DNA of 64,000 nucleotides, taken from IMG/VR virus record IMGVR_UViG_3300027904_000001. One strand, written 5' to 3'. A program made the position numbers and the translations under genes. Under the pieces are notes generated by a model. It saw only the letters and a list, made by a program, of their open reading frames with translations. It made no database searches and was not told the origin of the DNA. The DNA is from a virus. Positions within the stretch are counted from its first letter, which is position 1. Each line of letters begins with the position of its first letter. This document shows positions 24,748 to 25,391 of the stretch, in pieces.

Positions 24748-24993
24748 TTCCTGTTTTCCCGCCTTGACCGGAACTTATCAGCAGCCAAGATGGTCGGTTT
24801 TGCTTTCCTACTACTTTCTATTATACGCCATTCCGTATATGTCGTCAACAACTTTTTACATGTGATTTTATACAAAAATAGAGATCGTTATTAGTGCAAT
24901 GAGTATACGAAGAAACGTATAAAAATTAAAAATGTTTAAATATTGATAAAAAGCCTTGATAGCAACATTATATTTTGATATAATTATTTTTAT

Positions 24994-25080
24994 AGGTTGA
25001 AGCAGAAAATGCAATTTCATCGATTGTTGCGCGTTAAGAGCGTTTAAAAGATATTGAATTGTATTTAAAATTCTCAACCT
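24994..25080 (+). ncRNA. Y-RNA-like structured repeat unit 1, upstream of the Ro60-like gene
   Basis: Extended -10 tgatataat at 24976..24984. Ends pair as aggttga...tcaacct. Shares TTTAAAATTTAA and GAAGCAG with units 2 and 3. Confidence 0.4.
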
Positions 25081-25090
25081 TTAAAAATTT

Positions 25091-25157
25091 AACAGAAGCA
25101 GGAAATACAGTTTCATCACCCATGTTACGATAATACTGTATTCATTATTCTCTGTTT
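25091..25157 (+). ncRNA. Y-RNA-like structured repeat unit 2
   Basis: Outer stem aacaga/tctgtt, inner stem aatacagt/actgtatt. Confidence 0.4.
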
Positions 25158-25166
25158 TTAAAATTT

Positions 25167-25307
25167 AATCGAAGCAGAAAAAATAGTTACATCTAAAAAT
25201 CAGTTCGTGAGGTCATAGGTTTAAATCCTATCATGGTATCATAGATGCTATGTAGTTCAGTGATTAGAACGCACGTTAAAATGCACTATTTTTTGGTATT
25301 CTCGATT
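25167..25307 (+). ncRNA. Y-RNA-like structured repeat unit 3, containing tRNA-like T-arm and D-arm mimics
   Basis: Outer stem aatcga/tcgatt. ataggTTTAAATcctat (25215..25231) is T-arm-like. gttcAGTGATTAgaac (25254..25269) is D-arm-like. Confidence 0.4.
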
Positions 25308-25318
25308 TCATAAATTTT

Positions 25319-25391
25319 TAAGACTAAAGCGGAGTTGACAGCTTCATCGGTGTAGATAATTTGTTGTCAATATTTTTCTTAGTCTTTTTTT
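25319..25391 (+). ncRNA. Structured RNA unit 4 with terminal hairpin and U-tract
   Basis: aagactaag...cttagtctt followed by tttttttgttt. Inner hairpin ttgaca...tgtcaa. Confidence 0.35.

What the first reader, a model, noticed from the sequence alone, without database searches (positions are those of the whole stretch)
24976..25391. Tandem array of four degenerate Y-RNA-like structured RNA units (with tRNA-like T-arm/D-arm mimics) immediately upstream of the Ro60-like gene
Units 1–3 (24994..25080, 25091..25157, 25167..25307) each begin after a TTTAAAATTTAA/-10-like box with ...GAAGCAG.... Unit 1 has an extended -10 TGATATAAT. Unit 4 (25319..25391) follows a related TAAATTTTTAA box but lacks GAAGCAG. 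Each unit's ends base-pair into a long closing stem, as in the Y-RNA architecture. Unit 3 contains ataggTTTAAATcctat (T-arm-like) and gttcAGTGATTAgaac (D-arm-like). This resembles the tRNA-like module of bacterial YrlA RNAs. Unit 4 ends in hairpin aagactaag/cttagtctt plus a U-tract. Four diverged copies point to an evolving ncRNA family rather than a simple repeat.
Basis: seen in the sequence. Interest (0 to 1): 0.8.

Follow-up and report, generated by a model that had tools for sequence, protein, structure and literature searches.

The report
Four Y RNA genes beside phage Ro60

Summary
Window 24994-25386 (+) holds four head-to-tail units. Each has a 6-8 bp closing stem, a conserved asymmetric internal loop (5' AGCRG, 3' (A/U)UUC), an 8-11 bp second helix, a UU(A/U)CAUC motif exactly 10 nt after AGCRG, and a variable apical module.

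A covariance model built only from units of other loci finds exactly these four sites in the 64-kb window, both strands (E 2e-8 to 4e-6). In 166 related loci it gives 340 hits, 337 of them on the strand of the Ro60-type gene.

Unit 3 (25166-25308) carries a T arm, a closed acceptor-like stem and a D arm in the YrlA order. It scores 77 bits (E 1.5e-14) against a clade-specific YrlA-like model, but only 24 bits against Rfam YrlA (gathering score 69).

The adjacent 551-aa protein folds as Ro60; its top 13 PDB matches are all Ro60/Rsr. The locus lies in a phage-like region, behind a strong extended -10 promoter.

Multiple Y RNAs next to Ro60 are already described in bacteria and phages, including Bacillus phage G, which encodes a homologue of this protein. 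Verdict: new members of a known kind, in a diverged subfamily that Rfam misses. Expression and Ro60 binding are inferred, not shown.

The parts
24956..24984 (+). Sigma-70-type promoter: -35 TTGATA (24956-24961), 17-nt spacer, extended -10 TGaTATAAT (24976-24984). The predicted start is about 24991-24994, at the first base of unit 1.
   Evidence: 11 of 12 matches, TG present; sequence. Function is inferred, not shown.
24994..25080 (+). Y RNA unit 1 (87 nt, short type). Closing stem 24994-25000/25074-25080, loop AGCAG(A) 25001-25006, second helix 25007-25017 with its partner, UUUCAUC motif, and an apical hairpin GCGC-GUUAAGA-GCGU.
   Evidence: R1 46.9 bits, E 2.8e-8, full length; fold -22.7 kcal/mol, z -3.4.
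25090..25157 (+). Y RNA unit 2 (68 nt, short type). Closing stem AACAGA/UCUGUU, AGCAG loop, 8-bp second helix, UUUCAUC motif, small apical loop. A T5 run follows.
   Evidence: R1 47.8 bits, E 1.8e-8; fold.
25166..25308 (+). Y RNA unit 3 (143 nt, YrlA type). Closing stem AAUCGA/UCGAUU, AGCAG loop, 10-bp second helix (the anticodon-stem equivalent), UUACAUC, T arm 25215-25231, closed acceptor-like stem 25232-25252, U8-A9 equivalents 25253-25254, D arm 25255-25270.
   Evidence: R2 77.1 bits, E 1.5e-14; R1 39.3 bits; Rfam YrlA 24.2 bits, E 0.0096, below the gathering score of 69; fold; ARAGORN finds no tRNA.
25320..25391 (+). Y RNA unit 4 (67 nt, short type, 25320-25386). Closing stem AAGACUAA/UUAGUCUU, AGCGG loop, 9-bp second helix, CUUCAUC motif. 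It is followed by a T7 run (25385-25391), which makes a weak terminator-like end before the Ro60 gene.
   Evidence: R1 37.6 bits, E 3.7e-6; fold -17.6 kcal/mol, z -3.3; the terminator scan did not call it because it has too few G-C pairs.
25081..25089 (+). AU-rich linker 1 (UUAAAAAUU). Linkers 2 (25158-25165) and 3 (25309-25319) are alike. They are presumed single-stranded processing sites.
   Evidence: Family-wide, linkers are mostly 10-25 nt and 85% A+T. The processing role is inferred from M. smegmatis and D. radiodurans precedents (PMC4201824).
25438..27093 (+). Ro60/Rsr orthologue (551 aa): TROVE HEAT-repeat ring plus a vWA domain with a DxSxS MIDAS motif (D343, S345, S347). RBS AAAGGA at 25423-25428.
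   Evidence: Pfam TROVE 18 bits, below the cut-off of 23; PHROG 850, E 2.6e-37; top 13 PDB fold matches are all Ro60.

Best explanation
The 400-nt stretch encodes four non-coding Y RNAs that partner the Ro60-type protein encoded directly downstream.

**Shared scaffold.** Each RNA folds so that its 5' and 3' ends pair. This gives a closing stem, a conserved asymmetric internal loop (5' AGCRG, 3' (A/U)UUC) and a second helix of about one helical turn, ending in a conserved UU(A/U)C(A/U)UC junction. This scaffold is the likely Ro60-binding module. It corresponds in position to the CGAA-containing stem-bulge-stem of known bacterial and phage Y RNAs.

**Variable end.** The apical part differs between units and is the likely effector or decoy module. 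In unit 3 it is a tRNA-like domain (T arm, closed acceptor stem, D arm), as in YrlA. In units 1, 2 and 4 it is a short hairpin or loop, as in YrlB/Yrn2-type RNAs.

**Expression.** Most likely all four are transcribed from the single strong promoter at 24956-24984 as one precursor, probably reading on into the Ro60 gene. The precursor would be cut in the AU-rich 8-12-nt linkers, and the pieces stabilised by Ro60 binding.

**Function.** By analogy with D. radiodurans, S. Typhimurium and Thermus phage phiLo, the RNAs would gate access to the Ro60 ring and tether it to partners such as host PNPase. That would give a phage-encoded RNP acting on structured or damaged RNA early after induction or infection.

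**Shown here:** the sequence-structure family, its covariation, its strand and positional linkage to Ro60 genes, the tRNA-like module, and the Ro60 fold of the protein.

**Inferred:** transcription, processing, Ro60 binding and the effector.
For: **Model trained on other loci.** Model R1 (42 units from other loci; 14 pairs, all with compensatory changes) finds exactly the four units in the window and nothing else.

**Linkage to Ro60 genes.** R1 gives 340 hits at E<=0.01 in 166 loci chosen only for encoding a relative of the protein. Of these, 337 lie on the gene's strand. A pattern scan puts the units mostly within 750 nt upstream of the gene or just downstream of it.

**Tests that avoid circular selection.**
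- With the 3' partner defined by the second helix alone, closing-stem positions 1-6 are paired in 88-99% of 136 unique units. All four Watson-Crick pairs are used; shifted registers give 4-74%.
- With the partner defined by the closing stem alone, the second helix has at least 7 contiguous pairs in 128 of 171 units, against 13 of 171 with swapped partners.
- The spacing from AGCRG to the junction motif is 9-10 nt in 160 of 175 units, and 10 nt in all four window units.

**Unit 3.** R2 scores it 77.1 bits. On 49 YrlA-like units, 95.9% of cells are paired against 41-46% for slid controls, and 29 of 30 pairs show double changes.

**The protein.** It has the Ro60 fold.

**Precedents in the literature.** Y RNAs lie within 4 kb of Ro60 on the same strand, several per locus, and are processed from one precursor; they carry a GNCGAAN0-1G motif and a YUAY motif (PMC4201824). 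Thermus phage phiLo Ro60, the closest solved relative, binds two Yrl RNAs encoded upstream and forms a complex with PNPase (PMC12135203).
Against: - No expression, end-mapping or binding data exist for this locus.
- Rfam YrlA reaches only 24 bits (gathering score 69), and Rfam's metazoan Y_RNA model gives no hit at all.
- The published 5' motif GNCGAAN0-1G is complete in none of the four units. Unit 3 has AUCGAAG; the others have UGAAG, AGAAG and UAAAG.
- Unit 3's T loop (UUUAAAU) and D loop (GA in place of GG) depart from every other YrlA-like unit examined, so it could be a decaying copy.
- Folding z-scores are modest and similar on the opposite strand, so thermodynamics alone does not settle the strand.
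- The alignments used were fitted to the model.
Confidence: 0.85

Rival explanations
1. The units are cis-acting elements of the Ro60 mRNA leader, for example Ro60-binding sites for autoregulation or stacked attenuator hairpins, and not independent stable small RNAs.
For: Only one convincing promoter lies upstream. The linkers are too short for separate promoters. No promoter was called between unit 4 and the start codon. Unit 4 plus T7 resembles a leaky terminator.
Against: In many related loci the same units lie downstream of the Ro60 gene, or carry their own promoter-like and T-tract signals. Examples are the array of seven at L013 3666-4530, and L005. Known relatives are processed from such precursors into stable RNAs bound by Ro60 (PMC4201824). 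The two roles do not exclude each other.
Confidence: 0.07
2. The repeats act at the DNA level, as iterons or partition or operator sites for the neighbouring ParB-like or replication proteins.
For: There are repeated A/T-rich modules in an intergenic region, with ParB_N-domain and replication genes within a few kb.
Against: The strand bias is 337:3 relative to the Ro60 gene across unrelated genomic contexts. Helices are kept through compensatory changes while their sequence is free. G-U pairs are frequent and would be A-C mismatches on the other strand (for example pair 20/204 has 13 G-U). The linkage is to Ro60 genes, not to ParB genes. The true operator-like palindromes lie elsewhere, at 24822-24921.
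Confidence: 0.02
3. The stretch is a decayed tRNA gene cluster, or unit 3 is a tRNA pseudogene, with no present function.
For: There are T-arm-like and D-arm-like hairpins in unit 3. Phage genomes such as phage G carry tRNA clusters near their Ro60 gene.
Against: ARAGORN finds no tRNA. The order is T arm, closed acceptor stem, D arm, which is permuted relative to a tRNA and has no anticodon arm; this is exactly the YrlA order. Units 1, 2 and 4 have no tRNA features yet share the scaffold. The scaffold is conserved with covariation in hundreds of copies.
Confidence: 0.02

Closest known systems
Bacterial YrlA RNAs (Rfam RF02553; Chen et al. 2014, PMC4201824; structure in bioRxiv 10.1101/312249)
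   Same: Unit 3 has the same linear plan: closing stem, asymmetric internal loop holding a CGAAG-type motif, an anticodon-stem-like helix, a YUAY (UUAC) junction, a variable region, a T arm, a closed acceptor-like stem, U-A, and a D arm. It lies on the same strand as a Ro60 gene and 130 nt from it.
   Different: The Rfam score is 24 bits against a gathering score of 69. The loop sequences differ (AGCAG / GGUAUUC against AUGCU / AAACUUG). The T loop is UUUAAAU and the D loop has GA in place of GG. The acceptor-like stem has 9 bp. The partner is a diverged Ro60 clade that sequence search links only to phage Ro60.
YrlB / Yrn2-type short Y RNAs of S. Typhimurium, M. smegmatis and D. radiodurans (PMC4201824)
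   Same: [quoted passage not shown] They sit next to a tRNA-like Y RNA and a Ro60 gene. The known examples are processed from a polycistronic precursor.
   Different: There is no detectable sequence similarity, and no Rfam family matched these units. The window has three such units where the known species have one. Related loci have arrays of up to 8 hits (L110, L129).
Yrl1/Yrl2 of Thermus phage phiLo with its Ro60 (PDB 9KOP, 9L5Y; PMC12135203)
   Same: This is a phage-encoded Ro60 with Y-like RNAs encoded directly upstream. They have a stem-bulge-stem structure with a CGAA-type motif in the bulge. It is the closest solved relative of the window protein.
   Different: Protein identity is about 20%. 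There are two RNAs, not four. The passages read mention no tRNA-like module. The host and lifestyle differ.
Bacillus phage G gp540 locus (NC_023719)
   Same: The Ro60 gene is homologous (64% nucleotide identity over 1170 nt). The same unit family occurs upstream on the same strand: four R1 hits plus a fifth unit seen by eye upstream of gp540, and a YrlA-like unit at 103 bits. Y-like RNA in phage G is cited from Chen 2014.
   Different: The 3' loop motif is AUCUC/AACUC and not AUUC. The GenBank record annotates no short units.
Metazoan Y RNAs (Rfam RF00019)
   Same: They share the concept: a terminal stem that binds Ro60 and a variable loop that binds effectors.
   Different: No hit appears even at E<=10. 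There is no bulged-C helix GGUCCGA/UUGACC. They are not Pol III transcripts.

Membership tests
Bacterial/phage Y RNA (Ro60-associated ncRNA, criteria of Chen et al. 2014) | Encoded within about 4 kb of a Ro60 orthologue, on the same strand | tested here: met
   Units lie at 24994-25386 (+) and the gene at 25438-27093 (+). The protein has the Ro60 fold.
Bacterial/phage Y RNA (Ro60-associated ncRNA, criteria of Chen et al. 2014) | The 5' and 3' ends pair into a stem interrupted by an internal loop or bulge (stem-bulge-stem), supported by covariation | tested here: met
   All four units align full length to R1.
Bacterial/phage Y RNA (Ro60-associated ncRNA, criteria of Chen et al. 2014) | GNCGAAN0-1G (CGAA) motif near the 5' end | tested here: inconclusive
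   Unit 3 has AUCGAAG: CGAAG is present but the first G is A. Units 1, 2 and 4 have UUGAAG, CAGAAG and CUAAAG. Family-wide, GAAGCGG is the commonest form, but the base before AGCGG is base-paired and covaries.
Bacterial/phage Y RNA (Ro60-associated ncRNA, criteria of Chen et al. 2014) | Bound by Ro60 and dependent on it for accumulation; present as a discrete small RNA | not testable with these tools
   No transcriptome or binding data are available for this metagenome-assembled genome.
YrlA (Rfam RF02553) | Reaches the Rfam gathering score | tested here: not met
   24.2 bits against 69; E 0.0096 in a 701-nt search; full model length 1-114 aligned. No hit in gathering mode.
YrlA (Rfam RF02553) | T-arm mimic followed by a closed acceptor-like stem-loop and then a D-arm mimic; YUAY after the anticodon-stem-like helix | tested here: met
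   T arm 25215-25231, acceptor-like stem 25232-25252, D arm 25255-25270, and UUAC at the junction. All helices are paired in the R2 alignment, 77.1 bits, and in the predicted fold.
YrlA (Rfam RF02553) | tRNA-type tertiary contacts (G18/G19 with psi55/C56) and near-invariant T and D loop sequences | tested here: inconclusive
   The T loop is UUUAAAU, not UUCGAAU, and the D loop has GA, not GG. Among 49 units this is the only one with either change. This fits a compensated A19:U56 pair, but it is a single case.
YrlA (Rfam RF02553) | Substrate of tRNA-modifying enzymes (TruB, DusA) | not testable with these tools
   Needs biochemistry.
tRNA | Cloverleaf with anticodon arm and open acceptor stem | tested here: not met
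   ARAGORN finds no gene in the window. The arm order is permuted and the acceptor stem is closed.
Metazoan Y RNA (Rfam RF00019) | Match to the family model, with its bulged conserved helix | tested here: not met
   It is not among the hits at E<=10 in 24800-25500.
Ro60 / Rsr (TROVE + vWA) protein | HEAT-repeat ring plus a vWA domain with a MIDAS motif | tested here: met
   Foldseek: ranks 1-13 are all Ro60/Rsr/phage Ro60, E 1e-12 to 4e-8, over 485-610 alignment columns. DxSxS is invariant in 26 homologues. Pfam TROVE itself is below its cut-off for this sequence (18 against 23 bits).

The most novel reading that the evidence does not exclude
In this Ro60 clade, which is common in large phages and gut and termite-gut Firmicutes, the Y RNAs form expandable cassette arrays (4 units here, up to 8 hits elsewhere). 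They share one Ro60-docking scaffold but carry interchangeable apical modules: tRNA-like, short loops, and 220-nt structured domains. The array would act as an adaptor or decoy library. It would be fired from a repressor-controlled early promoter at prophage induction, either to redirect host RNA decay or to blunt tRNA-targeting defences. That would be a distinct, phage-specialised use of the Ro60 system and not simply housekeeping RNA quality control.
Probability: 0.2. Interest if true: 0.65.

Novelty: new member of a known kind. Interest (0 to 1): 0.38.

Why it matters
Y RNAs are hard to find by sequence. Rfam's models miss all four units at the curated thresholds, and none of the short units had an Rfam match.

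This locus and the 340 related hits define a clean, covariation-supported scaffold: AGCRG, then a 10-nt helix strand, then UUACWUC, and later AUUC. That scaffold could seed a new family model. It would annotate the Y RNA partners of a Ro60 clade with more than 3600 relatives found in the protein search. It also documents multi-unit arrays with diversified effector modules in phages.

It gives a compact test system of one promoter, four RNAs and one protein. With it one could ask how a single Ro60 chooses among several Y RNAs, and what the tRNA-like module is for.

It does not change the current picture of Ro60/Y RNA biology.

Tried and rejected
- **Rfam, gathering mode, whole window:** nothing.
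- **ARAGORN:** nothing.
- **Tandem Repeats Finder:** nothing. The units are too diverged and too unequal in length.
- **Single-protein locus searches:** 0 viral loci and 1 useful genome locus. An alignment-based query was needed.
- **Other Rfam 'evalue' hits** (snoRNA, miRNA and lncRNA models at E 4-10, mostly on the minus strand): rejected as chance.
- **Fixed-register test of the second helix:** blurred (51-69% paired), because the internal loop varies by 1-3 nt between units. I replaced it with a best-register test that uses decoy partners.
- **Strict fixed-register training set:** only 12 sequences, so dropped in favour of alignment A2.
- **Separate promoters per unit:** the promoter scan gave no better-than-shuffle signal inside the array (9 found against 6.8 expected; for L129: 14 against 13.3). 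The claim is therefore not supported.
- **Identity of the divergent 99-aa and 237-aa ORFs:** no Pfam, NCBIfam or PHROG hit.
- **Papers:** supplementary tables of Chen 2014 and the 2020 Annual Review were not available.
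Full report
**1. What is in the sequence**

The window between 24748 and 25437 is non-coding. On the left is a leftward ORF (24418-24717/24747, minus strand). On the right is a 551-aa rightward ORF (25438-27093).

A near-consensus promoter sits at 24956-24984: TTGATA, 17 nt, then TATAAT preceded by TG, 11 of 12 matches. From 24994 to 25386 there are four units separated by 8-12-nt A/T linkers.

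The repeat finder shows a 23-nt 5' module, GAAGCAG...TT(T/A)CATC, three times at 78-87% identity. Tandem Repeats Finder reports nothing.

**2. The neighbouring protein is a Ro60 orthologue**

- Pfam TROVE is sub-threshold for this sequence (18 against 23 bits).
- PHROG 850, 'RNA-binding protein', matches at E 2.6e-37.
- The only solved relatives found by sequence are the Ro60 of Thermus phage phiLo: PDB 9KOP/9L5Y, E 4e-9 for the single sequence and 1.6e-12 for a 26-sequence profile.
- More than 3600 homologues were found. Many have a precomputed TROVE hit, and one is named '60 kDa SS-A/Ro ribonucleoprotein' by its source.
- The DxSxS MIDAS motif is invariant in the 26 homologues aligned.
- An AlphaFold model (pLDDT 78, pTM 0.79) has as its 13 best PDB matches only Ro60 proteins: phage, frog, human and D. 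radiodurans Rsr. These align over almost the full length. The next match is 6 orders of magnitude weaker.

**3. The units belong to a large, structured, Ro60-linked RNA family**

Upstream regions of four homologous loci, read by eye, showed the same plan:
- a closing stem;
- (G/C)(A/U)AGCGG;
- a helix;
- UUAC(A/U)UC;
- a variable insert;
- the complementary helix strand;
- (G)AUAUUC;
- the closing stem's other strand, often followed by a T run.

I then collected 166 loci from phage, viral-contig, metagenome and genome collections. They were chosen only because they encode a relative of the protein.

A simple structural pattern found 205 units on the gene's strand and 4 on the other. Most lay within 750 nt upstream of the gene or just downstream of it.

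The distance from AGCRG to the junction motif is 9 or 10 nt in 160 of 175 unique units. It is 10 nt in all four window units.

Two tests avoid circular selection:
- When the 3' partner is defined by the second helix only, the closing-stem positions 1-6 are paired in 88-99% of 136 unique units. All four Watson-Crick pairs are used at most positions. Shifted registers give 4-74%.
- When the partner is defined by the closing stem only, the second helix has at least 7 contiguous pairs in 128 of 171 units. With partners swapped between units the figure is 13 of 171.

RNAalifold on 42 short units from other loci predicts exactly these two helices. All 14 pairs carry compensatory changes.

**4. Formal test on the window**

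A covariance model (R1) built from those 42 non-window units was run over the full 64 kb, both strands, with E up to 10. It returned four hits and no others:

| Unit | Coordinates | Bits | E-value |
|---|---|---|---|
| 1 | 24994-25080 | 46.9 | 2.8e-8 |
| 2 | 25090-25157 | 47.8 | 1.8e-8 |
| 3 | 25166-25308 | 39.3 | 1.5e-6 |
| 4 | 25321-25385 | 37.6 | 3.7e-6 |

All four align over the full model.

On the 166 loci, R1 gives 175 + 165 hits at E<=0.01, and 337 of the 340 are on the Ro60 strand. Array sizes, by my count from the tables in those calls:
- 8 hits in L110 and in L129;
- 7 hits in L013 and in L121.

Bacillus phage G, whose gp540 is 64% identical at the DNA level, has four R1 hits plus a fifth unit that I saw by eye. 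All five lie in the unannotated 1060-nt gap before gp540.

Predicted folds of the four window units reproduce closing stem, internal loop and second helix. The z-scores are -1.8 to -3.4. The opposite strand folds about as well, as hairpins do, so strand assignment rests on the comparative data.

**5. Unit 3 is YrlA-like**

In an E-value search of 24800-25500 against all of Rfam, the only hit of weight is YrlA. It covers 25192-25299 at 24.2 bits, E 0.0096, and aligns to the full model. That is far below the gathering score of 69.

A clade-specific model (R2) built from 18 non-window units that carry both T-like and D-like arms scores unit 3 at 77.1 bits, E 1.5e-14, full length. The T arm (25215-25231), the closed acceptor-like stem (25232-25252) and the D arm (25255-25270) are all paired. 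Units 1 and 2 match R2 only through the shared scaffold, at 39 and 35 bits.

On 49 YrlA-like units aligned to R2, 95.9% of cells are paired against 41-46% when partners are slid. Double changes occur in 29 of 30 pairs. The caveat is that this alignment was fitted to the model.

The order is T arm, closed acceptor stem, U-A, D arm. Before it come a helix equivalent to the anticodon stem and a UUAC junction. This is the YrlA architecture described by Chen et al. 2014 and seen in the YrlA crystal structure. ARAGORN calls no tRNA.

Unit 3 is the only one of the 49 with U at the C56 position of the T loop. It is also the only one with GA instead of GG in the D loop. This fits a compensated A19:U56 tertiary pair, but it is one case and could equally reflect decay in an AT-rich genome.

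**6. How it probably works (inference from named precedents)**

Known facts from the literature:
- In D. radiodurans, S. Typhimurium and M. smegmatis, several Y RNAs are encoded next to rsr. They are often made as one precursor, and Rsr binds and stabilises them.
- One Y RNA per species is tRNA-like and another is a simple long hairpin.
- In D. radiodurans, Y RNA tethers Ro60 to PNPase (abstract).
- The Ro60 of phage phiLo binds two Yrl RNAs encoded upstream and forms a ternary complex with host PNPase.

The window has one strong promoter whose predicted start coincides with the first base of unit 1. Its linkers are only 8-12 nt. Across the family, linkers are mostly 10-25 nt and 85% A+T. The scan calls no promoter between unit 4 and the start codon.

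I therefore infer a single transcript that carries the four RNAs and probably the Ro60 mRNA. The unit 4 stem plus U7 would act as a leaky terminator. Cleavage would occur in the AU-rich linkers.

Two elements are conserved in every unit type: the AGCRG/UUC internal loop and the UUACWUC junction. They lie about one helical turn apart. I propose that together they form the Ro60 docking site. This is untested.

**7. Context**

Phage-type genes lie on both sides of the locus:
- Downstream: a replication initiator, a primase/helicase, DNA methyltransferases, the large terminase subunit (49928-51238) and the portal protein (59658-61211).
- Upstream, on the other strand: ParB_N, PAPS-reductase/DUF3440 and Phage_Gp111 proteins.

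The Y RNA/Ro60 operon thus sits at a divergent promoter region of a phage or prophage. Two perfect TATACG-N6-CGTATA palindromes lie in that region. This suggests repressor control, which I did not pursue.

**8. Rivals**

- *Pure mRNA-leader role.* The same units lie downstream of the gene in many loci, and they form independent transcription-unit-like copies in L005. Both facts weaken this reading.
- *DNA iterons.* The strand bias, the compensatory changes and the G-U pairs exclude this for practical purposes.
- *tRNA remnants.* The permuted arm order and the non-tRNA units 1, 2 and 4 rule this out.

**9. Comparison and novelty**

What it works like: a bacterial or phage Ro60/Y RNA system.

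Membership:
- Met: the broad Y RNA criteria of position, strand and stem-bulge-stem structure with covariation.
- Partly met: the CGAA-type motif.
- Failed: the curated Rfam YrlA threshold.
- Untestable here: binding.

Y-like RNAs next to phage Ro60 genes have been reported before, including in Bacillus phage G (citing Chen 2014). Chen et al. also predicted that further variants would be found.

So this is a new member, or a small set of members, of a known kind. It belongs to a diverged subfamily that current family models miss. The finding is correct and well observed, but it is not surprising to a specialist.

Noticed in passing
window 24822-24839, 24904-24921, 10989-11006: There are two perfect TATACG-N6-CGTATA palindromes between the divergent promoters upstream of the Y RNA array, and a third copy with one mismatch 40 nt upstream of the ORF at 10536-10949 (-). 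Chance would give 0.10 copies. They look like operators of a phage repressor; the binding protein is not identified.
   Followed up: partly
L001 (Bacillus phage G NC_023719) 717-872 and 2194-2870: A YrlA-like unit (103 bits with R2) lies between gp538 and gp539. At least five short Y-like units lie in the unannotated 1060-nt gap before the TROVE gene gp540. Their 3' loop motif is AUCUC/AACUC and not AUUC.
   Followed up: partly
L042 1485-1701, L046 1447-1672, L047 1456-1686, L048 834-1054, L049 1453-1684: A long class of units (217-232 nt) has the same Ro60-type scaffold but a large conserved internal domain (…GGGAACGATTACCTCACGTAATGAGGGACC…). This may be a different effector module.
   Followed up: no
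L120 1422-1577, L122 252-407, L099 2614-2708: These are the only three of 340 scaffold hits that lie on the strand opposite to the Ro60 gene.
   Followed up: no
L031 about 1600-1680: What appears to be a genuine tRNA (anticodon loop TTTGCAC, CCA end) lies directly upstream of a Y unit at 1693-1775. This recalls the Yrn2-tRNA-Yrn1 precursor of D. radiodurans.
   Followed up: no
L005 2200-2770: Several near-identical YrlA-like copies are each preceded by their own promoter-like TTGCTA-17-TAGAGT and followed by a T run. This shows that the family also exists as independent transcription units.
   Followed up: no
window 20865-23061 (-), 30540-31286 (+), 48234-49430 (+): There are two PAPS-reductase-domain proteins, one with DUF3440 and next to a ParB_N protein, and a ParB-like/DNA methyltransferase fusion. 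These are phage DNA-modification-type genes flanking the locus.
   Followed up: no
window 17616-20842 (+): An FtsK/SpoIIIE-like ATPase is followed by a SpoIID-domain protein just left of the phage-like block. Whether they belong to the element or to the host is not clear.
   Followed up: no
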